In this document: positions 5,844 to 24,904 of the stretch, piece after piece
How the letters are laid out: each line of letters starts with the position of its first letter
Numbering within the stretch: position 1 is the first letter of the stretch
Source of the DNA: an uncultured Eubacteriales bacterium
GTDB taxonomy: Bacteria; Bacillota; Clostridia; Lachnospirales; Lachnospiraceae
DNA: 64,000 bases
Assembly: GCA_900545175.1 (NCBI GenBank)
Contig: UQYF01000005.1
Span: 29,890 to 93,889 of the forward strand
Reading direction: 5' to 3'
Position numbers and translations under genes: made by a program
The notes under the pieces: model-generated
Told to the model about the DNA's origin: nothing
The model's database searches: none
Seen by the model: the letters and a program-made list of their open reading frames with translations, nothing else

Positions 5844-5887
5844 TTGTGCGTTCATAAAGACAACTGATATAAGGAGGAGCAGGCATT

Positions 5888-6898
5888 ATGAAGGTTGTTG
5901 TATGTCAGGGAGAGACAACCGGCTATCCGTCAAGGGATGAGCTGGTTGCTCTCTGGAAGGAAGAGATAGGTAAGATACCTGAGGTTGATGAGCTTGTAGT
6001 AAGAGAAAATTTTGATTATGAAAAAGTTGATGAGATTGCGGACGATGCAGATGCACTCATCGGTGTATGGATAAAGGATGGATTTTATACGGATGAATTT
6101 TTTGACAGGCATAAAAAGCTTAAATATATCGCAACAACAGCTCATGGCTTTGGAAAGATTGATGCGGAGTGTGCAAAAAGACATGGAGTCACTTTTACTA
6201 ATACTATATATGGAAACGTAACCATAGCACAGTATGCGATGGCACTTCTTATGAATATATGCCACAGGATTGACGCATTAAACGACATGTACCGGGAGGC
6301 ATGTGATGAACATAAGAATGTGATGATGGGAAGGAATCTTCCAAGACAGATAAGACAGATTGAGCTGTATGAAAAGACAATAGGAATTGTAGGCTTAGGA
6401 GCTATCGGACTTTGTATGGCCCGGATGGCAGCAGGCTTTGGAATGAAGGTTATAGCATATAACCACCACAAAAAGACAGGTTCGGAATATGATTTTGTCG
6501 AGCAGGTTTCCCTTGACGAGCTGTTAAGAAGGTCGGATGTCATATCTATACATTGCCCATCAACGGATGAGACAAGAGGAATGATTGACAAGAATGTGAT
6601 TAATAAGATGAAGGACGGAGTAATCCTTATCAACACTGCAAGAGGTGATATCATAGTTGAGGATGACTTGGTGGATGCGCTGAATTCAGGAAAAGTATAT
6701 GCGGCAGGACTTGATGTTGTATGTAACGAGCCGGTTGTACAGAGAATACCGCTTATGGACTGTCCGAATGCAATCATTACACCTCATATGGCGTGGGCTC
6801 CGGCTGAGGCAAGATACAGGACAGTTAGGATAGCATCAGATAATCTAAAAAACTGGATTGAGGGTCATCCGACAAGTGTTATTAACGGAAAGGGCTGA
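5888..6898 (+). CDS. D-isomer-specific 2-hydroxyacid dehydrogenase (NAD-binding)
   Basis: RBS AAGGAGGAG; Rossmann GxGxxG motif (GIVGLGAIGLCMA); catalytic-domain similarity to the glycerate/phosphoglycerate dehydrogenase family. Confidence 0.8.
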   Translation: MKVVVCQGETTGYPSRDELVALWKEEIGKIPEVDELVVRENFDYEKVDEIADDADALIGVWIKDGFYTDEFFDRHKKLKYIATTAHGFGKIDAECAKRHGVTFTNTIYGNVTIAQYAMALLMNICHRIDALNDMYREACDEHKNVMMGRNLPRQIRQIELYEKTIGIVGLGAIGLCMARMAAGFGMKVIAYNHHKKTGSEYDFVEQVSLDELLRRSDVISIHCPSTDETRGMIDKNVINKMKDGVILINTARGDIIVEDDLVDALNSGKVYAAGLDVVCNEPVVQRIPLMDCPNAIITPHMAWAPAEARYRTVRIASDNLKNWIEGHPTSVINGKG

Positions 6899-6902
6899 TT
6901 AA

Positions 6903-8351
6903 ATGGCGGTAAATGAGAGAACTCTGAAGATGGGAAGTGCACCGATATTTCCACTGCTTGTCTCAATGGCTGTACCGGGACTTTTAGGAACACTGACTAC
7001 ATATCTGTACCGTACTGTCGACCAGATATTTGTCGGAAATTTTGTAGGGCGCACTGCACTAGGCGGCATATCGGTGCTTTCACCGTTTAACAATGTTATA
7101 ATTGCACTCTCACTTTTTATCACTGTCGGCGGAACCTCGCTTTTAGCACTTACAATGGGGCGGAAGGATTATGATGAGGCAAACAAGCTGTTTGCCAATA
7201 TAGTGATTCAAGCGATTGCAATGGCACTTATAGTCTCGGTACTTTTCTTTGTATTTGCCAGGCTTTTTGTCGGCGTGTGTGGAGCAAAGAAAGGCACACA
7301 GACTTATGAGTACGCTGTGCTATACTTAAAGATTGTCACATGCGGGCAGGTCTTTAACATGTTAAATCAAGGACTTGCAGCGATAATAAGGACTGAGGGC
7401 GCAGCAAAATATTCGATGTTTGCAAATATTGTAGGTGCTTTTTTTAATATAGTACTCGATGCACTTCTCATAATTGTATTTAAAATGGGAGTTGCAGGTG
7501 CTGCGATAGCAACGATAGTGAGCCAGCTTATGGGAGCAGCGTTCAGTGCAGCATTTTTTTTAACAGGAAAAAGTTCATTAAGATGGGCAGGCTTTGCGGT
7601 GGTTGATGTAAGGCAGATGTTATATATAGCTAAAATGGGTATTGCGCCTTCAATATTTCAGATGTTGTCATTGTTTACCAATATTCTTTTAAATAAATCA
7701 CTTCAGTACTATGGAGATTTAGATCCGGTATATTCATTGATTGGCGGCGGAGAGCTGTGCATATCGGCAGTTGCCATAGTTAACACGGTTGATAGTTTTA
7801 TTGTTTCAATGACATCGGGAATCAATCAGGCTGTATCACCTTTGATAAGTTATAATTATGGTGCTAAGAATTATTCCAGAGTAAGAAAAGCTTCGCTTTG
7901 TTCACAGGCTATGGCAGGAGTGTTTGCGATAGTGATATGGTCGGCTATGATGCTTGCACCTGAATTTGTGTGCAGCCTGTTCGGAAAAGGCGATGAGGCA
8001 CTGATAAGTTATGGTGCGATGGCAATGAGAGCCTGCAAGATGTTCGCACTTTTCGGAGGCTTCCAGATGCTTGTGAGCATGTATTTCAGTTCAATAGGAA
8101 AGCCGCAGGTTGCGACATTTGTATCAATATCAAGGCATGGACTTTTTCTTATTCCGGCGATGCTTATAATACCGCAGTTTATGGGACTTAAAGGTGTCCT
8201 TTATGCTAATTCGGTCTCCGATGGCTGTTCACTTATAGTAGTGTCACTTATGTATTTACATGAGATGAGAAGATTATCTAAGCTTAAGGATGGAGAAGAG
8301 ATACCTTCAAAAAGGTTGATCAATATATCTAAAAAGAGTCTTACAGAATAG
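6903..8351 (+). CDS. MATE-family efflux transporter
   Basis: 12-TM, ~480 aa, internally duplicated architecture typical of MATE proteins. Confidence 0.75.
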   Translation: MAVNERTLKMGSAPIFPLLVSMAVPGLLGTLTTYLYRTVDQIFVGNFVGRTALGGISVLSPFNNVIIALSLFITVGGTSLLALTMGRKDYDEANKLFANIVIQAIAMALIVSVLFFVFARLFVGVCGAKKGTQTYEYAVLYLKIVTCGQVFNMLNQGLAAIIRTEGAAKYSMFANIVGAFFNIVLDALLIIVFKMGVAGAAIATIVSQLMGAAFSAAFFLTGKSSLRWAGFAVVDVRQMLYIAKMGIAPSIFQMLSLFTNILLNKSLQYYGDLDPVYSLIGGGELCISAVAIVNTVDSFIVSMTSGINQAVSPLISYNYGAKNYSRVRKASLCSQAMAGVFAIVIWSAMMLAPEFVCSLFGKGDEALISYGAMAMRACKMFALFGGFQMLVSMYFSSIGKPQVATFVSISRHGLFLIPAMLIIPQFMGLKGVLYANSVSDGCSLIVVSLMYLHEMRRLSKLKDGEEIPSKRLINISKKSLTE

Positions 8352-8363
8352 GGAGGATTAATT

Positions 8364-9446
8364 ATGAACATTGAAAAATTAATGAGCGAAAATGCTGCAA
8401 AGAAGCCGGCAAGCAGGAGAGCAAGCAATGTAACGGCAAATGTAGATTTTTCAAAGCTTATCAGGATGGGATTTAATGAGCATCCTTACGGAATGTCACC
8501 GAAGGCTCTTGAGATTATGAAGGCTGAGACTGAAAAATCCAACTTTTACGGAGATTTCGGAAAGGGTGCGCTAAAGAAGGCAATAGCGGATTTTTACGGT
8601 CTTGATTTTGCAAATGTAGCTGCCTCAGCCGGTTCAAGCCCGCTTATCGAGACGATAGGCTGTGCATTTTTAAATCCTGGTGATGAAGTCTTAATGTGCC
8701 CTACATTTGCGGCATTTATAGATATGGCGCAGATAAGGCAGGCTGTTCCTGTTGTCGTTCCGTTAAATGAAGACAAGACTTATGACCTTGACGGACTTTA
8801 CAATGCGATAACAAAGAAAACAAAAATAATAGTTGTATGTAATCCGAACAATCCTACAGGTACATATGTGGGAAGAAAGCAGGTAGTCGATTTTATCAAA
8901 AAGGTTCCTGATGACATTATTGTGCTGATGGACGAGGCGTATCTTGAGTTTGCAACCGCTAAGGACTGCCAGAGCATGTACCCTCTTATAAAAGAGATGC
9001 CTGATAAGCCTATTATTGTTCTTAAGACATTTTCAAAATATTATGGTATGGCAGGTGTGCGTGTCGGGTATGCACTTGCTGCACCGGAGCTTATAGCTGC
9101 CATCGAAAAGTGTCCGAGTGCGATGATAAGCAAGGCAGGGCAGGCAGGAGCGGTTGCAGCACTTGAGGATCAGGAATATTATCAGGAGGTTAAGAAAAAA
9201 ATCGTTGAAGGAATGACATATCTAGAGACGCAGATGGCAGAGCTAGGATGTAAGGTATATCATTCACAGACTAACTTTATATTATTTGACCCTCATATTG
9301 ACGCACAGCTTGTGCGTTCTAAGATGATGGAGGCCGGAATAATGATATCTGCACCAGGGCTGTGCAGAGTATCTGTCAGCACAATGGATAACAACAGATT
9401 ATTTATAAAGACCCTGAAAGAAATTATGGGAAAGCAGCCTGATTGA
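8364..9446 (+). CDS. Class I/II pyridoxal-phosphate aminotransferase (histidinol-phosphate aminotransferase-like)
   Basis: Length and motifs (NPNNPTG, KTFSKYYGMAGVRVGY with the PLP lysine) typical of the HisC family. Confidence 0.75.
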   Translation: MNIEKLMSENAAKKPASRRASNVTANVDFSKLIRMGFNEHPYGMSPKALEIMKAETEKSNFYGDFGKGALKKAIADFYGLDFANVAASAGSSPLIETIGCAFLNPGDEVLMCPTFAAFIDMAQIRQAVPVVVPLNEDKTYDLDGLYNAITKKTKIIVVCNPNNPTGTYVGRKQVVDFIKKVPDDIIVLMDEAYLEFATAKDCQSMYPLIKEMPDKPIIVLKTFSKYYGMAGVRVGYALAAPELIAAIEKCPSAMISKAGQAGAVAALEDQEYYQEVKKKIVEGMTYLETQMAELGCKVYHSQTNFILFDPHIDAQLVRSKMMEAGIMISAPGLCRVSVSTMDNNRLFIKTLKEIMGKQPD

Positions 9447-9599
9447 AAATGCTGTGCAGGACTTAAAAATTCAGCTTGACAATTCATATGCGTTTAATTA
9501 TTATTAGTTCATAAAATAAGAGATGCGAAGCATCAATTTTTTATGAGCATGAAGCGAAAGCGGATTGCAGATATCATTGACTATATGAAAAAGCTATGA

Positions 9600-9905
9600 A
9601 GGGAAGAAGTAGATATTTTTAGGAGCCTACAGAGAGCTGCCGGGTGGTGAGAGGCGCACAGGTAACGGAATATTGAATACATCCTAGAGCATTGCACCGA
9701 AAGAAAGATAATTTTTTTAGTAGGCTGTGACGGCAGCACCCGTTATAGTGCAGAGGTATCGATTAAAAGTGTGAAGGATTACTTCTGAAACAGCTTTTGG
9801 TCTGTACTTGGTGAGGCACCGGATGTGAGTTCGGTGTGAAGTAAGGTGGTAACACGTTTATATACGTCCTTACAGTAGTAATCGCTGCTGTAAGGATTTT
9901 TTTAT
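9600..9905 (+). ncRNA. T-box leader riboswitch (likely tyrosine-specific) controlling tyrS
   Basis: Stem-I like region with AGAGAG/GGTGAGAG; candidate specifier loop GAA-UAC-A; T-box-like AAGGTGGTAACACG; terminator TCCTTACAG...CTGTAAGGA plus T7 at about 9868-9905. Confidence 0.55.
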
Positions 9906-9963
9906 TCTTTGAGCAGCGCATATAATTTGGTAAGTGTGCGGCTTAGCACGGAAAGGACAAAAA

Positions 9964-11184
9964 ATGGGTATTTACGAAGAGCTTAAGGCAAGAGGTCTTA
10001 TAGCACAGGTAACAAATGAAGAAGAAATCAGCAAGATGATCAATGAAGGAAAGGCTACCTTCTATATAGGATTTGACTGTACGGCTGATTCTCTTACAGC
10101 AGGACATTTTATGGCGCTTACACTTATGAAACGTCTTCAGATGGCAGGAAATAAGCCGATCGCATTAATCGGCGGCGGAACAACCATGATAGGTGACCCT
10201 TCCGGAAGAACCGATATGCGTAAGATGCTTACGAAGGAAGATATTGAGCATAATGCTGAATGTTTCAAGAGACAGATGGAGAGATTTATTGACTTTAGTG
10301 ATGGAAAAGCTCTTATGGTAAACAATGCCGACTGGCTTTTAAATCTCAACTATGTTGAACTGCTTCGTGAAGTCGGAGCATGCTTTAGTGTCAACAATAT
10401 GCTTCGTGCAGAGTGCTATAAGCAGAGAATGGAGAAGGGACTCTCATTCCTTGAGTTTAACTACATGATAATGCAGAGCTATGACTTCTATATGTTATAC
10501 CAGAAATACGGCTGTAACATGGAGTTCGGCGGAGATGACCAGTGGAGCAACATGCTCGGAGGAACAGAGCTTATCCGCCGTAAGCTAGGTAAGGATGCAC
10601 ATGCCATGACAATAACGCTTCTCACCGATTCTAACGGTAAGAAGATGGGAAAGACTGCCGGAAACGCTGTATGGCTTGACCCTGATAAGACTTCACCTTA
10701 CGATTTCTTCCAGTATTGGAGAAATGTTGACGATGCAGATGTAATGAAGTGCATTAAGATGCTCACATTTATTCCGCTTGAGGAGATTGAAAGGATGGAG
10801 AGCTGGGAAGGCAGCCAATTAAATGAAGCTAAGATGATTCTCGCATACGAGCTTACCAAGCTTGTTCACGGCGAGGAGGAAGCTGATAAGGCTAAGGCAG
10901 GCGCACTTGCAATATTCGGTGGTTCAGGAGACTCATCGAACATGCCTACAGTTGAGATTGAGGAAGCTGATTTCAGGGATGGCTTTGTTGATATACAGAC
11001 ACTTCTTGTAAAGGCAGGTCTTTGTCAGTCACGCGGCGATGCAAGAAGAAATGTTGAGCAGGGCGGCGTTACAGCCAATGATGTGAAGGCAACGCTTGAC
11101 ACAAAGTTTGCCAAGGCTGATTTCGGTGATGGAATCGTTGTAAGAAGAGGAAAGAAGAGCTTTAAGAAGGCAGTTCTCAAGTAG
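9964..11184 (+). CDS. tyrS: Tyrosyl-tRNA synthetase
   Basis: HIGH-type motif region (TADSLTAGHFMAL), KMGKT (KMSKS motif), C-terminal S4 domain; preceded by the T-box. Confidence 0.9.
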   Translation: MGIYEELKARGLIAQVTNEEEISKMINEGKATFYIGFDCTADSLTAGHFMALTLMKRLQMAGNKPIALIGGGTTMIGDPSGRTDMRKMLTKEDIEHNAECFKRQMERFIDFSDGKALMVNNADWLLNLNYVELLREVGACFSVNNMLRAECYKQRMEKGLSFLEFNYMIMQSYDFYMLYQKYGCNMEFGGDDQWSNMLGGTELIRRKLGKDAHAMTITLLTDSNGKKMGKTAGNAVWLDPDKTSPYDFFQYWRNVDDADVMKCIKMLTFIPLEEIERMESWEGSQLNEAKMILAYELTKLVHGEEEADKAKAGALAIFGGSGDSSNMPTVEIEEADFRDGFVDIQTLLVKAGLCQSRGDARRNVEQGGVTANDVKATLDTKFAKADFGDGIVVRRGKKSFKKAVLK

Positions 11185-11211
11185 AGGGAGCGTTCATAGG
11201 ATCTTAAACAG

Positions 11212-11254
11212 CAGACCGTAAGAGAGAAATTTGTTCTTACGGTCTGTTTTCTAT
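11212..11254 (+). terminator. Intrinsic terminator after tyrS
   Basis: CAGACCGTAAGAG...CTTACGGTCTG followed by TTTTCTATTTT. Confidence 0.7.
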
Positions 11255-11455
11255 TTTATGGTTCCGGTGTCAAAACATGCTAATCATTTTATAAAATAAT
11301 TTATTATTTTTTAAATAGTATATTGCAATATATAATAGCTTGTGATATGATACAATAAATTCATCAGAGAAGAACTGAAAAGTGCTTTATTCTATCGGAT
11401 GGTTTTTTGATGAATTGACAGGTCGGATATTATAATTAAGGAAGGGAGTGTTTAC

Positions 11456-11764
11456 ATGAATACGCAGATGAAGAAGGGTGTTTTGGAGCTGTGTGTTCTC
11501 TCGATGTTAAATCGCAGTGACAAGTACGGATATGAGCTTACGGAGAGCTTGTCTGAGGAGATGTCGATAGCGCCTGGGACATTGTATCTTATACTTAAAA
11601 GGCTCAAGGATGACGATTGTGTCGAGACATATTTAGTGGAGTCGGAGTCAGGTCCGGCGAGGAAATATTATCACCTGACAGATAAGGGAATACAGAGTCT
11701 GGAACAACAGAAAAACGACTGGCAGCAATTTATAAAGATTGTCGGCAAGTTCATAGGCGAGTAG
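11456..11764 (+). CDS. PadR-family transcriptional regulator
   Basis: Winged-helix PadR signature (LELCVLSMLNRSDKYGYEL...GTLYLILKRLK). Confidence 0.85.
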   Translation: MNTQMKKGVLELCVLSMLNRSDKYGYELTESLSEEMSIAPGTLYLILKRLKDDDCVETYLVESESGPARKYYHLTDKGIQSLEQQKNDWQQFIKIVGKFIGE

Positions 11765-11782
11765 TAGAGGGAGGAAAGATTT

Positions 11783-13219
11783 ATGACAAGAGCAGAATAT
11801 ATGGAAGAGCTTGCGAAGGCACTTAAGGATTATGACGAGGATTTTGCATTAGATATTATCGGGGATTACAGGAGACATTTCGATGAGGCGGCTGCTGACG
11901 GAAGAAGTGAGGAGTCAGTATGTGAGGAGTTAGGAAGCGTAGAGGATTTTATAAGGGATATACCGGAGGAGTTTAAAAGAAACAGTGAGCCAGATGAGAA
12001 GGAGCAGGACGATGCTGAATTTTCTGAGAAAGCCGGAGAAGAGGCACATTCAACAGGAAAGAATGATGATATCACGGACGATTTTGAAAAGCTTGCAAGT
12101 GACATAGGCAAGCTTGTAAACGAAGCCGGAAGGATGGCAGGCAAGGCCGGTGTAGCCGCCGGAAAAGCTGCAATCAAGGCGGCAAAAAGTGCTGATTCAG
12201 CTATAAGTAAGCTAAGCGAAGTTATATCTGACAAGATAAATGAAGCGATGGAAGATAAGACATCAGACATTTTTGATTCGGACGAGGGCAGTGATGATGA
12301 AGGTGGCAAAGCTGCCAAGGATATAGCAGGTGGCATGAACCTTGACAAGGATGACATTTTTGAAGAAAAGACAGATGACAATACTCTCATAGTATGCAGC
12401 TATACCGGCATCAGAGGAATCAAGATGAGTGTAGTAGAACCACATGTGGAACTTACACAGAGTGATACGGATGCAGTGACAATCACATTGTCAAGACCTC
12501 TTACTAAGAAGGAAAAGATGTATATGAGTCCTGTTGTGACTGTGGAGGACGGAATACTTAAGGTTAAACAGGAGAACAAAAGCAGGGCGTTCTCATTCCT
12601 CAATAATATTGGAAATGCACCTCTCATATATTATGTAAATATTCCTGCAAAATTTGAAAAAATCAATATTTCTACGGTCAGCGGCGGCATAATTATTCAG
12701 AGTCAGATAGTAACAGACGGCTGTAAGCTCTCAACAGTAAGTGGCTCGATAAAGACAGAATATGAAATACAAGCTGACAAAATAAAGCTTAATACGGTGA
12801 GTGGCTCTATAAAAACAGGTATGCTGTTATATGCAAAGAAACAGGAGTTGAGTTCTGTGAGCGGAAGCATAAAAGCTGTGGCAGGGCAGGACAGCTTCAG
12901 TTTAGATACTGTCAGCGGATCGGTCAAACTTGCTATAGCTGCACCCTGCAGTGGAAATATAAATACGGTTTCCGGTTCAATAGTGATTAATCTCCTAGCT
13001 GACATAGGAATTGACATAAAGAGTTCAGGGATGAGCGGATCCATGAAGCTGATGACAGATAAGCATGTTGATTGGAATAATGGTGAGAATGAAAAGAATG
13101 TTCATTTCGGATTCTCAAAATCAGACAGACATGCGATATTCGGGGATGGCTTAGCAAGAGTGACAACAGGCTCCGTAAGCGGTTCGGTGAAGGTATACGA
13201 TTTCGGAAAAATGGAATAG
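11783..13219 (+). CDS. DUF1700-like N-terminus, a long acidic/lysine-rich disordered linker, and a C-terminal DUF4097 beta-helix repeat domain (LiaG-like)
   Basis: N-terminal MTRAEYMEELAKALKDYDEDF typical of proteins encoded after padR; about eight tandem TVSGSIK-type repeats near the C-terminus; no TM segment visible. Confidence 0.7.
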   Translation: MTRAEYMEELAKALKDYDEDFALDIIGDYRRHFDEAAADGRSEESVCEELGSVEDFIRDIPEEFKRNSEPDEKEQDDAEFSEKAGEEAHSTGKNDDITDDFEKLASDIGKLVNEAGRMAGKAGVAAGKAAIKAAKSADSAISKLSEVISDKINEAMEDKTSDIFDSDEGSDDEGGKAAKDIAGGMNLDKDDIFEEKTDDNTLIVCSYTGIRGIKMSVVEPHVELTQSDTDAVTITLSRPLTKKEKMYMSPVVTVEDGILKVKQENKSRAFSFLNNIGNAPLIYYVNIPAKFEKINISTVSGGIIIQSQIVTDGCKLSTVSGSIKTEYEIQADKIKLNTVSGSIKTGMLLYAKKQELSSVSGSIKAVAGQDSFSLDTVSGSVKLAIAAPCSGNINTVSGSIVINLLADIGIDIKSSGMSGSMKLMTDKHVDWNNGENEKNVHFGFSKSDRHAIFGDGLARVTTGSVSGSVKVYDFGKME

Positions 13220-13233
13220 TAAGCGTAGGACAG

Positions 13234-13282
13234 AGGGGTGTGACATTATTGTATAACAATGTTGTCACACCCCTTTGTCTTA
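13234..13282 (+). terminator. Intrinsic terminator
   Basis: AGGGGTGTGACA...TGTCACACCCCT followed by TTGTCTTATTT. Confidence 0.7.
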
Positions 13283-13392
13283 TTTATAAAGGTTGTATTA
13301 ACTTTTTATAAAGTCCATTGACTTAGGAATTTGAGGGTGGCATTATTGCTTATAAACACAAAAAGAATGCAAAATTGGAAATGGAGACTATT

Positions 13393-15546
13393 ATGGGAAA
13401 ATTGATTAAGTATCTGGCTGAGCATAAGCTGGCAGTGTTTATAATTCTGCTGCTTCTGGTTGTGCAGGCATTCTGTGACCTTTCACTTCCGTCATATACT
13501 TCCGATATTGTCGATGTCGGAATACAGCAAAGCGGTATAGAAGGCGCAGCGGCTGAGAAGTATACGCAAAAGACGTATGAAGCTTTAAAGCTTTTTATGA
13601 ATGATGAGGATATAGCATATATGGATGAATGCTATGACGCGGACGGTGAAGTGTATGTCCGCAGGAATCTGTCATCAAAGGAGCTTGATAAGTTAAATAA
13701 TACGCTGCTCACAGCGGCAGGCATGGTATATTCGGTTCAGACATCCGGACAGTATAGCATTGCAGAGCTTGTTGACGGCTATAATGCAGGGCTTGTGACA
13801 AGGGAAGCTTTGTCGGCATTGACGCAGCAGGTCGAAGCTGCCATGGGAGATATGGCGGCTTCGATGAAATCCCAGATGGCTGTTGAGCTTGTAAAGAGTG
13901 AGTATACAGCCCTTAATTATGATCTTAATGCGATTCAGAGACATTATCTTCTGATTATGGGAGCTAAGATGCTTGCAATGACATTACTCATGGTTGCTGC
14001 TGCAATAGGAGTGGGCTTTATCGGCGCAAGAACTGCTGCTGCGATAGGACGTGACCTTAGGGAGAAGCTTTTTACGAAGGTCATAGGCTTTTCAAATGCG
14101 GATATCAACAAATTTTCTACAGCATCCCTCATAACAAGAAGTACTAACGATGTCCAGCAGGTTCAGCAGGTATCGGTTATGATGCTTAGAATCGTACTGT
14201 ATGCTCCTATCATTGGAATAGGCGGTATTATAAAAGTTACCGGAACAGACACAGGAATGGGATGGATAATAGGTGTTGCTGTCGGTGCAGTGCTTTCACT
14301 TGTGCTTGTGCTGATGGTTGTCGCAATGCCTAAGTTTAAAAAGATGCAGAGTCTTGTTGACCGTGTCAACTTAGTATCTAGAGAGCTACTTACAGGAACT
14401 ATGGTTATAAGAGCGTTCAGCAGGGAGAAGCATGAGGAGGAGAGATTTGACAAGGCTAACAAGGATCTTATGTCTACACAGCTCTTCACTAACCGTGTCA
14501 TGTCCATAATGATGCCTGCAATGATGCTTATTATGAATGCGATTACTGTACTCATAGTATGGATGGGCGCAAAAGGAATAGATATCGGACGTATGCAGGT
14601 AGGTGACATGATGGCATTCATAACCTATACAATGCAGATTGTCATGGCTTTCCTTATGATTACGATGATATCGGTTATGCTTCCGAGAGCAGGTGTTGCA
14701 GCTGACCGTATTGAGGAGGTTTTAAACACAAAGGAGACAATAGAGGATAAGGCTGATGCCTGTGAGGCGGATAAGAAGCTTGCCGACTGCAAGGGTGTTG
14801 TTGAATTTAAGAATGTATCCTTCAGATTTGACGGCGGAAGCGAAAATGCAATCTCTAATCTGACCTTTAAGGCAGAACCTGGAAAGACAACAGCGATTAT
14901 AGGAAGCACAGGCTGCGGAAAATCGACTGTTGTGAATCTTTTAGACAGATTTTACGATGTTACAGAAGGGAGCATAACACTTGACGGTGTTGACATCCGT
15001 GATATATCGCAGAAGGAGTTGAGAAGCCATATCGGTCTTGTGCCTCAAAAAGGTGTGCTGTTCTCAGGAACGATTGAGAGCAATATCAAATACGGCGGAG
15101 ATTTTGTCACAGATGAGGATATGAAGGAGGCAGCAGCTATCGCACAGGCTACGGAGTTTATCGACAGTAAGAAGGACGGATATGCCGACTCGATAGCACA
15201 GGGCGGAACTAATGTGTCCGGAGGACAGAAGCAGCGGCTCTCAATAGCGAGAGCTATTGCAGTAAGGCCAAAGGTGTATGTGTTTGATGACAGCTTTTCG
15301 GCACTTGATTTTAAGACGGATGCAGCTCTTAGAAAGGCATTATCTGCCAGAACCAAGGATGCTTCCGTGATTATAGTAGCACAGAGAATCTCAACTATAA
15401 TGAACGCAGACCAGATTATTCTTTTGAATGAAGGCAAGGTTGCAGGAATCGGAACACACAAGGAGCTTTTAAAGAATTGCCCTGAGTATTTAGAAATTGC
15501 AAAATCCCAGCTTTCCGAAGCGGAACTTGCAGGAGAGGAGGCGTAA
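13393..15546 (+). CDS. ABC exporter, fused permease/ATPase subunit 1 of a heterodimeric multidrug-type exporter
   Basis: 6 TM N-terminus, Walker A GSTGCGKST, signature VSGGQKQRLSIARA, Walker B VFDDSFSALD; the ORF is also open from 13375. Confidence 0.85.
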   Translation: MGKLIKYLAEHKLAVFIILLLLVVQAFCDLSLPSYTSDIVDVGIQQSGIEGAAAEKYTQKTYEALKLFMNDEDIAYMDECYDADGEVYVRRNLSSKELDKLNNTLLTAAGMVYSVQTSGQYSIAELVDGYNAGLVTREALSALTQQVEAAMGDMAASMKSQMAVELVKSEYTALNYDLNAIQRHYLLIMGAKMLAMTLLMVAAAIGVGFIGARTAAAIGRDLREKLFTKVIGFSNADINKFSTASLITRSTNDVQQVQQVSVMMLRIVLYAPIIGIGGIIKVTGTDTGMGWIIGVAVGAVLSLVLVLMVVAMPKFKKMQSLVDRVNLVSRELLTGTMVIRAFSREKHEEERFDKANKDLMSTQLFTNRVMSIMMPAMMLIMNAITVLIVWMGAKGIDIGRMQVGDMMAFITYTMQIVMAFLMITMISVMLPRAGVAADRIEEVLNTKETIEDKADACEADKKLADCKGVVEFKNVSFRFDGGSENAISNLTFKAEPGKTTAIIGSTGCGKSTVVNLLDRFYDVTEGSITLDGVDIRDISQKELRSHIGLVPQKGVLFSGTIESNIKYGGDFVTDEDMKEAAAIAQATEFIDSKKDGYADSIAQGGTNVSGGQKQRLSIARAIAVRPKVYVFDDSFSALDFKTDAALRKALSARTKDASVIIVAQRISTIMNADQIILLNEGKVAGIGTHKELLKNCPEYLEIAKSQLSEAELAGEEA

Positions 15547-15551
15547 GACGG

Positions 15552-17396
15552 ATGAGCGAAAATAGAGAATATTCAAAGAGCAGAAATATGGGCAGACGTG
15601 GTCCGGGAGGGCATGGAATGATGCCCGGCGAGAAGGCAAAGGACTTTAAAGGTACGACAAGGAAAATTCTGTCATATGTTGGCAGATATAAGATTGCAAT
15701 AGTGCTTGTAATGATATGTGCTGTTATGGGAACTATTTTTAATATAGTAGGTCCTAAGGTGCTTTCTAAGGCGACAACAGAGATATTTAACGGTCTTGTA
15801 TCTAAAGTGTCGGGTGGAGCAGGTATTGATTTTCACAAGATAGGTGTTATTTTACTTATCCTTCTTGGACTTTATTGTGTCAGTGCACTGTTTTCATTCA
15901 TACAGGGCTTTATAATGAGCGGCATTTCACAGAAGCTAAGCTTCAGAATGAGAAAGGAAATTTCTGAGAAAATTAACAGAATGCCTCTTGCATATTTTGA
16001 ATCTAAGACTGTCGGAGAAGTGCTTTCAAGAATAACCAACGATGTTGATACATTCGGAATGAGCCTTAACCAGAGTATCACGACACTTATCACATCTGTG
16101 ACAACGCTTATAGGTGTATTTATAATGATGATGACTATAAGTCCTCTTATGACGCTTATTGCACTTGTGATACTTCCGATATCAGCATTTTTGATAAGTG
16201 TTGTTGTAAAGCATTCGCAAAAGTACTTTAAGGCACAACAGGAATACTTAGGAGATATCAACGGTGCTATCGAGGAATCATACAGCGGACACACCATAAT
16301 AAAGGCATTTAACCGCGAAGAGAAAGTAAATGAGAGCTTTCAGGAGACAAATGCGAAGCTGTATTCATCAGCGTGGAAATCACAGTTCTTATCTGGACTT
16401 ATGCAGCCTATAATGACATTTGTCGGAAATCTTGGCTATGTTGCCGTGGCTGTGACAGGTAGTATGCTTGCAGTTGCCGGCTCGATTACGGTAGGTGATA
16501 TTCAGGCATTTATACAGTATGTAAGGAGCTTTACACAGCCTATAACACAGATTGCACAGGTATTTAACATGCTTCAGTCGATGGCTGCCGCAGCAGAGAG
16601 AATATTCGAATTCCTTGACGAGGAAGAGGAGCCTGTAACTGAGAATCCTGTAAGGCTTGATGAGATTAAGGGAGAGGTTGATTTTGAGCATGTTAAGTTC
16701 GGCTACGACCCTGAGAAACCTGTCATCCACGATTTTACATGCCATGTAAAACCGGGAAGCATGGTGGCAATCGTAGGTCCTACAGGAGCAGGAAAGACCA
16801 CGATGGTTAAGCTTCTCATGCGCTTTTATGATGTCAATTCCGGATGTATCAGGGTTGACGGAGAAAATGTCAAGGATTTTGAGAGAAGGAATCTACGTGA
16901 AGCATTTGGAATGGTGCTTCAGGATACCTGGCTGTTCAAGGGAACAATCATGGAAAATATCAGATACGGACGACTTGATGCTACCGATGAGGAGGTTATC
17001 GCAGCAGCTAAGGCGGCTAATGCTGACCATTTTATAAGGACTCTTCCGGGTGGCTATGATATGGAGCTTAATGAGGAGGCAAGCAACGTCTCTCAGGGAC
17101 AGAAGCAGCTTCTCACAATCGCAAGAGCCATTCTTGCCGACAACAGGATAATGATTCTTGATGAGGCTACAAGCTCGGTAGATACAAGAACAGAACAGCA
17201 CATTCAGGATGCGATGGCAAATCTTATGAAGGGAAGAACGAGCTTTGTCATAGCTCACAGACTCTCAACAATAAGAGATGCGGATGTCATTCTTGTGATG
17301 AAGGACGGAGATATTATAGAGCAGGGTAATCACAACGAGCTGCTTGCAGGAAACGGATTCTATGCACAGCTTTATAACAGCCAGTTTGAGGCATAA
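15552..17396 (+). CDS. ABC exporter, fused permease/ATPase subunit 2
   Basis: Walker A GPTGAGKTT, signature VSQGQKQLLTIARA, Walker B ILDEATSSVD; adjacent to subunit 1. Confidence 0.85.
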   Translation: MSENREYSKSRNMGRRGPGGHGMMPGEKAKDFKGTTRKILSYVGRYKIAIVLVMICAVMGTIFNIVGPKVLSKATTEIFNGLVSKVSGGAGIDFHKIGVILLILLGLYCVSALFSFIQGFIMSGISQKLSFRMRKEISEKINRMPLAYFESKTVGEVLSRITNDVDTFGMSLNQSITTLITSVTTLIGVFIMMMTISPLMTLIALVILPISAFLISVVVKHSQKYFKAQQEYLGDINGAIEESYSGHTIIKAFNREEKVNESFQETNAKLYSSAWKSQFLSGLMQPIMTFVGNLGYVAVAVTGSMLAVAGSITVGDIQAFIQYVRSFTQPITQIAQVFNMLQSMAAAAERIFEFLDEEEEPVTENPVRLDEIKGEVDFEHVKFGYDPEKPVIHDFTCHVKPGSMVAIVGPTGAGKTTMVKLLMRFYDVNSGCIRVDGENVKDFERRNLREAFGMVLQDTWLFKGTIMENIRYGRLDATDEEVIAAAKAANADHFIRTLPGGYDMELNEEASNVSQGQKQLLTIARAILADNRIMILDEATSSVDTRTEQHIQDAMANLMKGRTSFVIAHRLSTIRDADVILVMKDGDIIEQGNHNELLAGNGFYAQLYNSQFEA

Positions 17397-17399
17397 AAA

Positions 17400-17468
17400 G
17401 TCTGGGACAGGTGTCTGACCCCTTGTCCCAGTTTTGGGACATAGGGGTCAGACACCCCTGTCCCAGAC
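17400..17468. other. 69-nt composite imperfect palindrome (24-26 bp outer stem enclosing a 7-bp inner hairpin) with no T-tract, between the ABC exporter stop and the next start codon
   Basis: GTCTGGGACAGGTGTCTGACCCCT / TGTCCCAGttttGGGACA / AGGGGTCAGACACCCCTGTCCCAGAC, read directly. Confidence 0.6.
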
Positions 17469-17484
17469 AGAATGGAGATGGATT

Positions 17485-19479
17485 ATGAAGCGTCTGATTA
17501 ACAGCAGGAAGGATTTGTTCACTATCCCTAATCTTATGGGGTATTTTCGTATAATACTTATTCCTATATTCATGGCGGTCTATATAGGAGCTGACAACAG
17601 GGCGGATTATATCGCTGCCGCAGTCATACTTGGAATATCCGGGCTTACGGACTGTTTTGACGGAAAAGTGGCAAGACATTTTAATATGATAACTGAGTGG
17701 GGCAAGGTGTTAGACCCTGTGGCGGATAAGCTTACGCAGGCGGCAGTGTTTATAAGCCTGTCCTTCCGCTATCCTACGATGAGATATCTTGTGATACTCT
17801 TTGTCGTGAAGGAAATGTTCATGGGTATTATGGGTGCTGTCATGTTAAAAAAAGGAAGCATGATGGACGGAGCAAGGTGGTACGGAAAGCTCTGCACTGC
17901 AGTGCTGTACGGAGCGATGTTCATGCTGCTGCTGGTAGTTGACCTCTCATATTTTGCGGCGGGGCTTATTATCTCAATCTGCATTATCATGAACGTCTTT
18001 TCGTTTGCATGTTACATAGTGTACTATGTGCGCGTGCTTATGAATAAGCCTGTTACAAGCGGAAAAATTAAGATGTGGAAGCCTGTGACGACAATTATCG
18101 GTTTTGTCCTTGTGTATGTGGTTATCAATCTGGCGATAGCGGTTGTAGGAAGCTCTAAGCAGCCGGAGTATAATGGCGATAAGCAGGTTGCAATGCAAAG
18201 TACTGATGGCACTGAGCGGGCGGTCATTGTCGAGGATAATTCGGATGCACTTTTAAGCAGAGTAAGGATGATACAGAATGCACAGTCGGAAATAATTCTT
18301 TCTACCTTTGATTTTATGTCGGATGAGAGCGGCAGGATAATGATTGGCGCACTGTGTGAAGCGGCTGAAAAAGGAGTGAAGGTGGAGGTGCTTGTCGATG
18401 GCTTTGACGGTGTTCTTCATATGAAGTGGAATCCTTACTTTTATGCATTGTCTGCGAATGAAAATGTAACTCTGATGATGTACAATGAGATAAATCCGTT
18501 CACTATGTACAAAGGCATGGCGAGAATGCATGACAAGTATCTTGTTGTGGACAGACAGATTTATATGCTTGGCGGAAGGAATACATTTAACTATTTCCTC
18601 GGAGACTACAGTAATTACAAAAATTATGACAGGGATGTTCTTGTGTGGAGGAGAAAGCCGGCAGCACAGCAGGAAAATGCGTCTGTCAATGAGCTTTTAG
18701 CTTACTATGAGACGGTCAAAAACAGCGGTGAATGCAGCAGTTTCGCACATGGAAAAAGTCTTGCGGACAGATACTGTGTGAAGCACGCTATGGAGCGTAT
18801 AGAGGAGGAATATGAAAAATACTGCTCTGAACATGAAGAGCTTTCAGATGAGTATTCCTATGAGGATAATACGTTTCAGGTTGAAAGTATAGCTCTGCTT
18901 TCAAATCCGGTGAATGCAGGAGTGAAGGAGCCTGTTGTATGGCATAAGCTTATGAGCCTTATAGGCAGTGCTAAGGAGTCCGTAAAGCTGCACACACCAT
19001 ACATAATCTGTAATGATATGATGTATGATACTATAAAGGACGCAGCCGCAGGAAAGGAAGTCACGGTAATGACTAATTCCGTTGCGAACAATGGCAACAG
19101 CTTCGGAGCGGCAGACCTTGAAAAGAACAGGGACAGAATGCTTGACACAGGTGTAACTTTATTAGAATACGATGGTGGAGTGTCATACCACGGAAAGAGC
19201 ATGGTGATTGACGATGACATATCCGTGGTCGGATCGTTCAATATGGATATGAGGAGCGCATATCTTGACACAGAGCTTATGCTTGTGATTAAAAGTGATG
19301 AGCTGAATGCACAGCTTCGTACTATCATGTCGGAATATGAAAAATCGGCGGTAATAGCATTGCTGGATGGCAGATATGACAATCCTAACAATGTTGTGCC
19401 GCAGGAGATAACAACAACGCGCAAGGTGAGAAAAAATATCATAAAGATGCTGTTTTACTGGGCGAGGTTTCTGTTCTGA
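17485..19479 (+). CDS. Fusion protein: N-terminal CDP-alcohol phosphatidyltransferase domain plus a C-terminal phospholipase-D/cardiolipin-synthase-like domain with two HKD motifs
   Basis: CDP-OH-P motif DGKVARHFNMITEWGKVLDPVADKL; HKD motifs HDKYLVVD and HGKSMVIDDD; N-terminal TM helices; the ORF is open from 17434 but the RBS-compatible start is ATG 17485. Confidence 0.75.
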   Translation: MKRLINSRKDLFTIPNLMGYFRIILIPIFMAVYIGADNRADYIAAAVILGISGLTDCFDGKVARHFNMITEWGKVLDPVADKLTQAAVFISLSFRYPTMRYLVILFVVKEMFMGIMGAVMLKKGSMMDGARWYGKLCTAVLYGAMFMLLLVVDLSYFAAGLIISICIIMNVFSFACYIVYYVRVLMNKPVTSGKIKMWKPVTTIIGFVLVYVVINLAIAVVGSSKQPEYNGDKQVAMQSTDGTERAVIVEDNSDALLSRVRMIQNAQSEIILSTFDFMSDESGRIMIGALCEAAEKGVKVEVLVDGFDGVLHMKWNPYFYALSANENVTLMMYNEINPFTMYKGMARMHDKYLVVDRQIYMLGGRNTFNYFLGDYSNYKNYDRDVLVWRRKPAAQQENASVNELLAYYETVKNSGECSSFAHGKSLADRYCVKHAMERIEEEYEKYCSEHEELSDEYSYEDNTFQVESIALLSNPVNAGVKEPVVWHKLMSLIGSAKESVKLHTPYIICNDMMYDTIKDAAAGKEVTVMTNSVANNGNSFGAADLEKNRDRMLDTGVTLLEYDGGVSYHGKSMVIDDDISVVGSFNMDMRSAYLDTELMLVIKSDELNAQLRTIMSEYEKSAVIALLDGRYDNPNNVVPQEITTTRKVRKNIIKMLFYWARFLF

Positions 19480-23893: not shown

Positions 23894-24904
23894 ATGGCTT
23901 TATTTGAATCATATGAAAGAAGAATTGAGAAGATCAATTCTGTTTTAAATAGCTATGGAATCGCTTCTATCGAGGAAGCTGAGAAGATTACTAAGGATGC
24001 CGGCCTTGATGTTTACAACATGATCAAGGGCGTTCAGCCAATTTGTTTTGAGAACGCTTGCTGGGCTTACATTGTAGGTGCTGCAATCGCTATTAAGAAG
24101 AATGCACGCAAGGCTTCAGAGGCTGCTGCTGCAATCGGTGAGGGCTTACAGGCTTTCTGTATCCCTGGTTCTGTTGCAGACCAGAGAAAGGTTGGTCTTG
24201 GTCATGGTAACCTCGGTAAGATGTTACTTGAGGAAGAGACAGACTGCTTCTGCTTCTTAGCAGGCCACGAGTCATTCGCTGCTGCAGAGGGTGCTATCGG
24301 TATCGCTAACAATGCTAACAAGGTACGTCAGAAGCCGCTCCGCGTTATCCTTAACGGACTTGGCAAGGATGCTGCCCAGATTATTTCAAGAATCAACGGC
24401 TTTACATACGTTGAGACAGAGATGAATTATCACACGGGAGAGGTTAAGGAAGTATTCCGTAAGTCCTACTCCAACGGTCCTAGAGCTAAGGTTAACTGCT
24501 ACGGCGCTAACGACGTAACAGAGGGCGTTGCAATCATGTGGAAGGAGAATGTTGATGTATCCATCACAGGTAACTCAACTAACCCTACAAGATTCCAGCA
24601 TCCTGTTGCAGGTACTTACAAGAAGGAGAGAATTGAGGCAGGCAAGAAGTATTTCTCAGTTGCTTCAGGCGGTGGTACAGGCCGTACACTTCATCCAGAT
24701 AACATGGCAGCAGGTCCTGCTTCCTACGGTATGACAGATACTATGGGACGTATGCACTCAGATGCTCAGTTCGCCGGTTCTTCATCAGTTCCTGCCCACG
24801 TTGAGATGATGGGTCTTATCGGTATGGGTAACAACCCTATGGTTGGTGCTACAGTTGCAGTTGCAGTTGCCATTCAGGAAGCTGCTGACAACAATAGATT
24901 CTAA
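23894..24904 (+). CDS. GGGtGRT-family protein (conserved protein of unknown function)
   Basis: Eponymous motif SVASGGGTGRTLHPDN present; RBS AGGAGGA; strongly biased codon usage. Confidence 0.8.
   Translation: MALFESYERRIEKINSVLNSYGIASIEEAEKITKDAGLDVYNMIKGVQPICFENACWAYIVGAAIAIKKNARKASEAAAAIGEGLQAFCIPGSVADQRKVGLGHGNLGKMLLEEETDCFCFLAGHESFAAAEGAIGIANNANKVRQKPLRVILNGLGKDAAQIISRINGFTYVETEMNYHTGEVKEVFRKSYSNGPRAKVNCYGANDVTEGVAIMWKENVDVSITGNSTNPTRFQHPVAGTYKKERIEAGKKYFSVASGGGTGRTLHPDNMAAGPASYGMTDTMGRMHSDAQFAGSSSVPAHVEMMGLIGMGNNPMVGATVAVAVAIQEAADNNRF

What the first reader, a model, noticed from the sequence alone, without database searches (positions are those of the whole stretch)
17485..19479. Single polypeptide combining a CDP-alcohol phosphatidyltransferase domain with a two-HKD phospholipase-D/cardiolipin-synthase-like domain
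The N-terminal ~230 aa carry the CDP-OH-P transferase signature (D-G-x2-A-R...G-x3-D-x3-D) with TM helices. The C-terminal ~430 aa carry two HxKxxxxD motifs. Bacteria usually make phosphatidylglycerol-phosphate with the former type of enzyme and cardiolipin with the latter. A fusion suggests channelled synthesis of an anionic phospholipid (or a novel head-group exchange product) by one protein.
Basis: partly seen in the sequence, partly recalled or inferred. Interest (0 to 1): 0.55.

Follow-up and report, generated by a model that had tools for sequence, protein, structure and literature searches.

The report
Two-domain membrane phospholipid enzyme fusion
One gene of a gut Lachnospiraceae bacterium really does join two different phospholipid head-group enzymes, but the two active sites are predicted to sit on opposite faces of the membrane and neither half is the ordinary housekeeping enzyme, so it is probably an unstudied accessory lipid-remodelling enzyme.

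Summary
Window 17485..19479 (+) is one uninterrupted 664-aa ORF. It holds a CDP-alcohol phosphatidyltransferase (CAP) domain (aa 12-185) and a two-HKD phospholipase-D-like domain (aa ~243-664). Every catalytic residue is invariant in 27 homologues of 45-100% identity. The fusion occurs in at least 50 species, nearly all Lachnospiraceae.

- Neither half reaches the curated cut-offs for PgsA or for any cardiolipin synthase.
- The CAP clade lacks two of the four cationic residues that hold the terminal phosphate of the product in S. aureus PgsA.
- A seventh transmembrane helix and the charge pattern place the PLD domain outside the cell and the CAP site inside. Direct channelling is therefore unlikely.
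- A canonical cls gene lies right next to the fusion in some genomes.

The pairing itself looks functional. The closest unfused PLD relative and a free CAP of the sister clade share one operon, with a two-component system, on an island 96-99% identical across genera.

My best reading is an accessory, two-faced phosphatidyl-transfer enzyme that makes cardiolipin or a related lipid. The product is unknown, and I found no paper on this fusion.

The parts
17485..19479 (+). Complete ORF of 664 aa plus stop codon: the CAP - TM7 - PLD fusion protein
   Evidence: 100% identical to P0001
17474..17477 (+). GGAG ribosome-binding site, 7 nt upstream of the ATG at 17485
   Evidence: read from the sequence
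17518..18039 (+). CDP-alcohol phosphatidyltransferase domain (aa 12-185), six TM helices
   Evidence: Pfam PF01066, 121.9 bits; phmmer to S. aureus PgsA 7drj, E 2e-11, over aa 12-180; AF2 helices 14-34, 39-65, 71-95, 99-122, 132-150, 156-185
17650..17727 (+). CAP catalytic signature D56xxD59GxxAR64x8G73xxxD77xxxD81
   Evidence: invariant in A1 and A2
18076..18150 (+). Seventh transmembrane helix (aa 198-222). It links the cytoplasmic C-terminal end of the CAP domain to the PLD domain.
   Evidence: AF2 helix 198-222; hydropathy peak 2.72; preceding loop has mean 5.7 K+R, following segment has 2.4 K+R against 6.2 D+E; homologous to the single N-terminal TM of unfused relatives
18211..19359 (+). 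Two-lobed PLD/HKD catalytic domain (aa ~243-625)
   Evidence: Pfam PLDc_2 x2 and PLDc; Foldseek hits to PLD-type PssA 3hsi/8yr5/8yr6, PLD 7e0m and Streptomyces PLD, E about 1e-16 to 1e-14
18529..18582 (+). First HKD motif: H349-D-K351-YLVV-D356 ... G363-G-R-N366
   Evidence: invariant
19189..19242 (+). Second HKD motif: H569-G-K571-SMVI-D576 ... G583-S-F-N586
   Evidence: invariant
19414..19476 (+). C-terminal basic/hydrophobic helix ending WARFLF (W659 and R661 invariant), probably an interfacial membrane anchor
   Evidence: AF2 helices 644-656 and 660-663; invariant columns; the same tail is present in unfused relatives. The membrane-anchor role is inference.
17400..17468 (+). Long perfect-stem hairpin between the upstream ABC gene (stop at 17396) and the fusion gene; role unknown (it has no T-run)
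   Evidence: RNA fold -60.7 kcal/mol, z = -8.3; unique in the window, found elsewhere only in the same-species locus L001

Best explanation
This is an accessory, two-faced phospholipid head-group enzyme.

Step 1, homology shown and chemistry inferred: the N-terminal six-helix CAP module has its Asp-rich metal site at the cytoplasmic face. There it transfers phosphatidyl from CDP-diacylglycerol to an alcohol and releases CMP. Two of the four cationic ligands for the terminal phosphate of glycerol-3-phosphate are missing. The acceptor is therefore more likely a neutral hydroxyl (phosphatidylglycerol, as in CAP-type cardiolipin synthases, or another polyol) than glycerol-3-phosphate.

Step 2, predicted topology: a seventh helix carries the chain across the membrane, so the HKD domain sits on the outer face, like the single-span relatives it derives from.

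Step 3, inferred from PLD-superfamily chemistry: H349 and H569 form a covalent phosphatidyl-histidine from an outer-leaflet phospholipid. The phosphatidyl group is then passed to a second alcohol. This is a cardiolipin-synthase-like condensation or head-group exchange, giving cardiolipin or a related phosphatidyl-X lipid.

The two modules are coupled by supply and co-localisation. Lipid made inside is used outside after flipping. They are not coupled by a closed channel. The enzyme supplements the housekeeping pathway rather than replacing it, and probably serves envelope remodelling.
For: - Intact, invariant catalytic residues in both halves.
- The CAP half is homologous to SaPgsA over its whole length.
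- In all 32 fused and free members of this CAP clade, SaPgsA R118 is replaced by V/I/L/M/Y and K137 by C/A/V/N/S/G. K83 is kept and R110 is K or R (residue roles from PMC8640168).
- The clade scores about equally on the pgsA and CAP-ClsA models and below both cut-offs.
- The AF2 model (pLDDT 83.4, pTM 0.76) has seven TM helices followed by a PLD fold.
- Positive-inside pattern in 27 fused proteins. In 86 single-TM relatives the N-tail carries net +3.7 against -0.1 after the TM.
- Most close PLD relatives are ~470-aa proteins with one N-terminal TM.
- Functional linkage: fusion in at least 50 species, and a split PLD-RR-HK-FUSC-CAP operon.
- Accessory status: canonical cls sits adjacent in L040/L042/L047 and in the island. 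Distribution is patchy and the gene neighbourhood is not conserved.
- Biosynthetic context of the PLD family: a PlsY gene followed by a GT28-PLD fusion.
- Precedent for Cls paralogues making non-cardiolipin lipids: PMC6446866, PMC8141893.
Against: - No biochemical data exist for any member, and the product is not identified.
- The topology is predicted only. I could not inspect model coordinates.
- Two related GT28-PLD fusion proteins (P0166, P0418) have no TM helix before the PLD domain, so there the domain must work at the cytoplasmic face.
- K82 and K109 (equivalents of SaPgsA K83 and R110) are kept, so glycerol-3-phosphate is not excluded as acceptor.
- I could not test whether genomes with the fusion also carry a canonical pgsA. 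If they do not, the CAP half may simply be their PgsA.
- Free CAP relatives often stand alone without a PLD neighbour.
- The CAP gene is deleted in some island copies, and some relatives have N-termini without the CAP motif. The PLD module can evidently work without a CAP partner.
Confidence: 0.5

Rival explanations
1. Plain bifunctional PgsA-Cls. [quoted passage not shown] After dephosphorylation, the PLD half condenses two phosphatidylglycerols into cardiolipin. The protein would be the organism's main route to both anionic lipids.
For: The best curated hits are pgsA (85.2 bits) and bacterial cardiolipin synthase (104 bits). One source names a fused homologue as CDP-diacylglycerol--glycerol-3-phosphate 3-phosphatidyltransferase. 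SaPgsA is the only PDB sequence hit at E<=0.01 (three other CAP enzymes appear only at E 0.07-0.3). K82, K109, T138 and the Tyr equivalent to Y181 are conserved.
Against: Both halves fall well below the curated cut-offs, while a true PgsA and true cls genes pass them. The equivalents of R118 and K137 are lost in the whole clade. The intermediate PGP phosphatase is not part of the protein. The active sites are predicted on opposite faces. Canonical cls is adjacent in several genomes. The fusion is found in only about 50 of the 80 loci returned (390 relatives among 185,579 species genomes), so it is not a general solution.
Confidence: 0.2
2. Phosphatidyl-glycolipid (or other phosphatidyl-X) synthase. 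The outer PLD domain would move phosphatidyl from PG or cardiolipin onto a sugar hydroxyl of a glycolipid or another non-PG alcohol. The CAP half would supply the donor lipid. The product would be a lipid class not yet assigned to any gene in Firmicutes.
For: A GT28 (MGDG-synthase-type) glycolipid glycosyltransferase is fused directly to this PLD family in two diverged proteins, next to plsY. A free CAP of this clade sits in an operon with a CrtO-like acyltransferase and an MGDG-synthase-type GT. ClsB is required for phosphatidyl-trehalose rather than cardiolipin (PMC6446866). An archaeal Cls is promiscuous (PMC8141893). The PLD half is a paralogue sitting beside a canonical cls.
Against: The GT-PLD fusion is rare, with only 2 clusters, and lies in a distant branch of the PLD tree. 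No glycosyltransferase is conserved next to the CAP-PLD fusion. No lipid data exist.
Confidence: 0.17
3. Surface phospholipase D with a membrane anchor. The outward-facing HKD domain would mainly hydrolyse exogenous (dietary or host) or outer-leaflet phospholipids to phosphatidic acid plus head group. The CAP part would serve chiefly as anchor or be functionally secondary.
For: Predicted outside location. Structural similarity to secreted Streptomyces PLDs and bacterial PLD 7e0m. Some relatives carry N-terminal multi-TM regions that have lost the CAP motif (P0125, P0127, P0133, P0135, P0136). The CAP gene is deleted in some island copies.
Against: The CAP catalytic motif is invariant in all fused homologues down to 37-45% identity, which argues for selection on catalysis. 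The closest curated families are cardiolipin synthases, not hydrolytic PLDs. The PLD family appears in lipid-biosynthetic contexts (cls, plsY, GT28).
Confidence: 0.1
4. Artefact: a mis-assembly, or a frameshift that joins two adjacent genes.
For: One related MAG (L022) has an in-frame stop exactly between the CAP part and TM7.
Against: The identical architecture and length (about 660-700 aa) recur in hundreds of independent assemblies, including isolate genomes. The linker helix is conserved. Composition matches the surroundings.
Confidence: 0.01

Closest known systems
PgsA, phosphatidylglycerophosphate synthase (S. aureus structure 7DRJ/7DRK; NCBIfam TIGR00560)
   Same: Six-TM CAP fold. Complete D-x2-D-G-x2-A-R-x8-G-x3-D-x3-D signature. 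Equivalents of N5, R65, K75, K83, T138 and Y181 are conserved.
   Different: 85.2 bits against the 109.1 cut-off (SaPgsA scores 185.5). The R118 equivalent is hydrophobic (G117/V119 region) and the K137 equivalent is Cys. Both contact the 3'-phosphate of PGP in SaPgsA (PMC8640168). Fused to an extra TM helix and a 440-aa PLD domain.
CAP-type cardiolipin synthase (NCBIfam NF053678 ClsA; eukaryotic Crd1/CRLS1 type)
   Same: Same CAP family. This clade scores as well on this model as on pgsA (80.9-96.7 bits). The loss of phosphate-binding cations would suit a PG acceptor (inference).
   Different: Far below the 240-bit cut-off. No direct residue comparison with a characterised CAP-type Cls could be made with the tools. 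My recollection that CRLS1 has K-x-N-T at the K137 position is a lead only.
PLD-type bacterial cardiolipin synthases ClsA/ClsB/ClsC (TIGR04265, NF008427)
   Same: Two HKD motifs about 220 residues apart, the GG/SxN follow-up, a hydrophobic/basic C-terminal tail, and membrane attachment.
   Different: 104 against 290 bits and 84.7 against 281 bits. No PLDc_N two-helix anchor; instead a single anchor helix with the opposite predicted orientation. Co-occurs next to genuine cls genes.
ClsB as phosphatidyl-trehalose synthase (Salmonella; PMC6446866) and the promiscuous archaeal Cls (PMC8141893)
   Same: Both are examples of Cls-like HKD paralogues whose real products are not cardiolipin. That is the situation suspected here.
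   Different: No orthology with either. They have no CAP fusion and no transmembrane anchor of this kind.
PLD-type phosphatidylserine synthase PssA (3HSI, 8YR5/8YR6)
   Same: Best structural neighbours of the PLD half (Foldseek E about 1e-16).
   Different: 13-18% identity. NCBIfam PssA model 38 against 314 bits. PssA uses CDP-DAG in the cytoplasm, which would not be available to an outward-facing domain.
Split version: the 'phospholipase D family protein' - RR - HK - 'FUSC family protein' - 'CDP-alcohol phosphatidyltransferase family protein' operon of Lachnospira eligens ATCC 27750 (NC_012780, WP_012740926..WP_012740922) and many other genera
   Same: Closely related PLD (51% identity to aa 191-664) and a free CAP of the sister clade (40% identity). 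The same R118/K137 substitutions.
   Different: Separate genes with a two-component system and a FUSC-family membrane protein between them. Carried on a horizontally spreading island. The CAP gene is lost in some copies.

Membership tests
CDP-alcohol phosphatidyltransferase superfamily (Pfam PF01066) | Profile score above the gathering threshold, and the D-x2-D-G-x2-A-R-x7-12-G-x3-D-x3-D signature on TM2-TM3 | tested here: met
   121.9 bits against 22. Motif at aa 56-81, invariant in 27 homologues.
PgsA (NCBIfam TIGR00560 equivalog) | Whole-protein score at or above the curated cut-off of 109.1 bits | tested here: not met
   85.2 bits. The control SaPgsA scores 185.5.
PgsA (NCBIfam TIGR00560 equivalog) | Cationic pocket for the 3'-phosphate of PGP/G3P (SaPgsA K83, R110, R118, K137; PMC8640168) | tested here: not met
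   K82 and K109 are present. The R118 equivalent is G117/V119 and the K137 equivalent is C137. The same loss is seen in all 32 clade members.
PgsA (NCBIfam TIGR00560 equivalog) | CDP-DAG:glycerol-3-phosphate phosphatidyltransferase activity | not testable with these tools
   Needs an enzyme assay.
CAP-type cardiolipin synthase (NCBIfam NF053678) | Score at or above the curated cut-off of 240 bits | tested here: not met
   80.9 bits. Relatives score 71.8-96.7.
PLD/HKD superfamily (Pfam PF13091, PF00614) | Two HxKxxxxD motifs with the downstream G-G/S-x-N, and the two-lobed PLD fold | tested here: met
   Foldseek probability 1.00 to PssA, PLD and human PLD1/2.
Bacterial PLD-type cardiolipin synthase (NCBIfam TIGR04265) | Score at or above the curated cut-off of 290 bits | tested here: not met
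   104 bits, matching mainly the second HKD half. Neighbouring canonical cls genes score 313.5 and 327.9.
Bacterial PLD-type cardiolipin synthase (NCBIfam TIGR04265) | N-terminal two-helix PLDc_N anchor (PF13396) | tested here: not met
   No PF13396 hit in the query, although it is present in the canonical cls of L062. The query has one anchor helix (TM7) after the CAP domain.
ClsB (NCBIfam NF008427) | Score at or above 281 bits | tested here: not met
   84.7 bits.
PLD-type phosphatidylserine synthase (NCBIfam NF006946) | Score at or above 314 bits | tested here: not met
   38.3 bits, despite being the best structural neighbour.
Cardiolipin synthase (any type) | Formation of cardiolipin in vivo or in vitro | not testable with these tools
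   Needs lipidomics or an enzyme assay.

The most novel reading that the evidence does not exclude
The fusion, and its split operon form, would define a pathway for a lipid not yet assigned to any gene in Firmicutes. A CAP enzyme with a non-G3P acceptor would work on the inner face. An outward-facing Cls-like transphosphatidylase would then build, on the outer leaflet, a phosphatidylated glycolipid or another bis-phosphatidyl species. This would occur in abundant human-gut Lachnospiraceae, and the split form would spread between genera on a mobile island under two-component control.
Probability: 0.2. Interest if true: 0.75.

Novelty: new variant of a known kind. Interest (0 to 1): 0.5.

Why it matters
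Membrane lipids of gut Lachnospiraceae are poorly known, and bacterial lipids of this kind can be immune ligands (phosphatidyl-trehalose is one example, PMC6446866). A conserved enzyme joining a cytoplasmic CDP-DAG-dependent transferase to an outward-facing Cls-like domain would be the first case of phospholipid head-group chemistry organised across both leaflets by one polypeptide. It gives a concrete, clonable candidate for outer-leaflet cardiolipin synthesis or for an unassigned phospholipid. The fusion also serves as a Rosetta stone. It links two otherwise anonymous families ('phospholipase D family protein' and 'CDP-alcohol phosphatidyltransferase family protein') that travel together on a widely transferred island with cls, bsh, ftsH and an alarmone synthetase, which suggests a role in envelope adaptation in the gut.

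Tried and rejected
- ABC exporter as dedicated flippase. The two ABC genes upstream and lacZ downstream are syntenic only in the close clade (L001, L004-L011) and absent around 40+ other fused genes. I rejected them as conserved partners.
- Upstream hairpin (17400-17468) as a repeated element. It is unique in the window and otherwise present only in the same-species locus L001. It has no T-run, so it is not a clear intrinsic terminator.
- Second CAP hit in L031 as a possible canonical pgsA. It is a 128-aa fragment copied from the fusion's own CAP part.
- Conserved CAP-PLD adjacency among free CAP relatives. It is absent in L085/86 and L089/90, so the linkage is not universal.
- Prevalence of the GT28-PLD fusion. 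Only two clusters carry it, so it is weak support for the glycolipid idea.
- Literature. Four searches for the fusion found nothing on it. The lipocone paper and the CL-evolution paper do not mention it.
- I could not test whether carriers also encode a canonical pgsA or pgp.
- Model coordinates are not exposed, so the relative placement of the domains rests on helix count and charge bias.
Full report
**1. The observation**

Window 17434/17485..19479 (+) is a single open reading frame. The ATG at 17485 is preceded by GGAG at 17474-17477 and gives a 664-aa protein.

Pfam finds:
- CDP-OH_P_transf at aa 12-167, 121.9 bits.
- Two PLDc_2 stretches, 123.5 bits.
- A PLDc active-site motif at aa 567-591.

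The CAP signature D56xxD59GxxAR64x8G73xxxD77xxxD81 is present. So are two HKD motifs, H349xK351xxxxD356...GGRN and H569xK571xxxxD576...GSFN. All are invariant in alignments of 19 and 27 fused homologues spanning 45-100% identity.

The same protein, at 82-100% identity and always 664 aa, was assembled independently many times. Base composition matches the surroundings. The fusion is therefore real and is not an artefact.

**2. Distribution**

- The word-indexed search gave 689 hits. The fused architecture holds down to 45% identity. Source names are generic: 'CDP-alcohol phosphatidyltransferase family protein' and 'phospholipase D-like domain-containing protein'. One source calls a homologue PgsA.
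- A scan of one genome per species found 390 relatives. Of the best 80 loci, 50 encode the full fusion. Almost all are Lachnospiraceae or unclassified Clostridia.
- Cultured carriers include Acetatifactor muris DSM 23669, Faecalimonas umbilicata DSM 103426 and Hominisplanchenecus murintestinalis.
- The exhaustive HMMER search over 50%-identity representatives shows the fused form is the minority. Most strong hits are ~455-490-aa proteins that align to query aa ~195-664, which is one N-terminal TM helix plus the PLD domain.

**3. Neither half is the housekeeping enzyme**

*CAP half.*
- It scores 85.2 bits on TIGR00560 (pgsA, cut-off 109.1) and 80.9 on the CAP-type ClsA model NF053678 (cut-off 240).
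- As calibration, S. aureus PgsA scores 185.5 and 70.5 on the same two models. Free and fused members of this clade score 65-90 and 72-97. The clade is therefore about equidistant from the two characterised families and belongs to neither.
- The SaPgsA structure paper (PMC8640168) names K83, R110, R118, K137 and Y181 as ligands of the 3'-phosphate of PGP. The K83A, R110A, R118A and K137A mutants all had lower activity than the wild type.
- The HMMER alignment to 7drj and a 33-sequence alignment give the same picture. K83 is kept. R110 becomes K. R118 is always hydrophobic or Gly. K137 is always C/A/V/N/S/G.
- Losing half of the cationic pocket argues, by inference, for an acceptor without a terminal phosphate.

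*PLD half.*
- It scores 104 bits against the 290 cut-off of TIGR04265 and 84.7 against 281 on ClsB.
- Genuine cls genes that pass the cut-off lie immediately upstream of the fused gene in L040 (327.9 bits; L042 and L047 are similar). One also lies upstream of the unfused relative in L062 (313.5 bits).
- The PLD half is therefore a paralogue that sits beside the real cardiolipin synthase.

**4. Topology**

- The AlphaFold2 model (27-sequence alignment, pLDDT 83.4, pTM 0.76) has seven long helices: 14-34, 39-65, 71-95, 99-122, 132-150, 156-185 and 198-222. A mixed alpha/beta domain follows.
- Its best PDB neighbours are PLD-type PssA, bacterial PLD and Streptomyces PLD.
- SaPgsA has six TM helices, with the active-site cavity open to the cytoplasm (PMC8640168). 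The query aligns across all six.
- Across 27 fused proteins, K+R counts are 2.8, 1.6, 3.3 and 5.7 in the N-tail and the TM2-3, TM4-5 and TM6-7 loops. They are 0.4, 1.0 and 0.1 in the alternate loops. The segment after TM7 has 2.4 K+R against 6.2 D+E.
- In 86 single-TM relatives the N-tail has net charge +3.7, against -0.1 after the helix. The N-tail is the more positive in 72 of the 86.

Both lines predict that the PLD domain is extracytoplasmic while the CAP site is cytoplasmic. This is a prediction, not a measurement.

There is a caveat. Two related proteins fuse a GT28 glycolipid glycosyltransferase directly to this PLD family with no TM helix between them. In that rare lineage the domain must act from the inside.

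**5. Evidence that the pairing is functional**

- In about 30 species of different genera the closest unfused PLD (51% identity) heads an apparent operon: PLD - OmpR-type regulator - HAMP histidine kinase - FUSC-family membrane protein - CAP. The genera include Lachnospira eligens, Blautia, Dorea, Roseburia, Fusicatenibacter and Eubacterium, and even an Intestinimonas. The genes abut or overlap.
- The fusion therefore acts as a Rosetta stone for two separately encoded proteins.
- A crude NJ tree of PLD domains nests the island PLD and other single-TM forms among the fused ones, and puts a few fused proteins elsewhere.
- Fused and free CAPs form sister clades.
- Together this suggests more than one fusion or fission event, although the trees are only rough.
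- The linkage is not obligatory. Free CAPs often stand alone. Some island copies have lost the CAP gene. Some relatives carry N-terminal TM regions without the CAP motif.

**6. Context in the window**

- Upstream on the same strand lie tyrS, a 478-aa HAAS-domain gene, and two ABC exporter genes. In the same-species locus L001 a PadR gene was called between tyrS and the HAAS gene.
- Downstream lie a GH2 beta-galactosidase gene and a GGGtGRT gene.
- This synteny holds only among close relatives. Distant fused genes sit next to purine genes and ispF or next to htrA, pgm and glycosyltransferases. No conserved operon partner emerges.
- A -60.7 kcal/mol hairpin fills most of the 88-nt gap before the gene.

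**7. Mechanism proposed**

*Shown:* two intact catalytic centres of known chemistry, a seventh helix, and non-membership of the curated PgsA and Cls families.

*Inferred:*
- The CAP module transfers phosphatidyl from CDP-DAG to a probably non-phosphorylated alcohol at the inner face.
- The HKD module, on the outer face, forms a phosphatidyl-histidine and passes the phosphatidyl group to a second alcohol. This is Cls-like condensation or head-group exchange.
- The modules are coupled through lipid supply after flipping. They are not coupled by channelling.
- The enzyme is accessory and serves envelope remodelling.

I put this at about 0.5. The rivals are:
- Plain PgsA-Cls: about 0.2.
- A phosphatidyl-glycolipid or other new-lipid synthase, which is a specific version of the main idea: about 0.17. 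It is hinted at by the GT28-PLD fusion next to plsY and the CAP-CrtO-GT28 operon. Precedents exist in ClsB (PMC6446866) and a promiscuous archaeal Cls (PMC8141893).
- An outward-facing hydrolytic PLD: about 0.1.
- An artefact: about 0.01.

**8. Novelty and verdict**

Both domains are textbook families, and the architecture is already present in sequence databases under generic names. Four literature searches found no study of it.

The new points are these:
- The CAP clade is separate from both PgsA and CAP-type Cls.
- The PLD clade is separate from the curated Cls families and is predicted to face outward.
- The fusion, together with the split operon, links the two clades functionally.

I rate it a new variant of a known kind, of moderate interest (0.5). 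Decisive experiments are straightforward in cultured carriers or by heterologous expression.

Noticed in passing
L062 1513-10827; L084 (NC_012780.1, L. eligens ATCC 27750 megaplasmid) 4208-19257; L055-L083: A gene island is shared by many genera: small alarmone synthetase, canonical cls, TM-PLD, response regulator, histidine kinase, FUSC-family protein and CAP, followed by bsh (choloylglycine hydrolase) and ftsH. In L. eligens it is flanked by transposase genes. The 4.8-kb PLD..CAP stretch is mostly 96-99% identical in DNA (outliers at 83-93%) between Lachnospira, Blautia, Dorea, Roseburia, Fusicatenibacter, Eubacterium, Lacrimispora and an Intestinimonas. That indicates recent horizontal spread, possibly of a bile or envelope-stress adaptation module.
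   Followed up: partly
window 17400-17468: A near-perfect hairpin of about 32 bp (-60.7 kcal/mol, z = -8.3) lies between the ABC exporter gene and the fusion gene. It has no T-run, is unique in the window, and is otherwise found only in the same-species locus L001.
   Followed up: partly
window 11783-17396 (+): An apparent drug-efflux-type module lies just upstream of the fusion: a HAAS-domain membrane protein (478 aa) plus two ABC_membrane/ABC_tran half-transporter genes. A PadR gene precedes it in L001. It is syntenic with the fusion only in the close clade.
   Followed up: partly
L022 5872-8007: In the MAG 'Eubacterium sp. UBA3279' the fusion carries an in-frame stop in the TM6-TM7 loop, exactly at the domain boundary. 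This could be a sequencing error, a pseudogene or a natural split.
   Followed up: no
L031 5865-6251: A 128-aa ORF about 2.8 kb downstream of the intact fused gene duplicates the TM4-TM6 part of that gene's CAP domain. It is a gene fragment.
   Followed up: no
P0125, P0127, P0133, P0135, P0136 (representative proteins): These are PLD relatives of 560-650 aa whose N-terminal multi-TM regions resemble the rear helices of the CAP domain. They have no CAP Pfam hit and no catalytic motif. They may be decayed fusions in which only the anchor function survives.
   Followed up: partly
L091 7383-10403; P0166, P0418: An 800-aa protein fuses an MGDG-synthase-type (GT28) glycosyltransferase directly to this PLD family, with no TM helix between. 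Its gene sits immediately after plsY. It is rare (two clusters, 76% identical).
   Followed up: partly
L087 7001-9207; L088 6281-8481: A free CAP of this clade sits in an apparent operon with a CrtO-like acyltransferase and an MGDG-synthase-type glycosyltransferase. In L087 a YidC gene follows.
   Followed up: no
window 23894-24904 (+): A gene for a GGGtGRT-family protein (PF14057, 640 bits) of unknown function. It follows a 267-aa ORF with no Pfam match.
   Followed up: no
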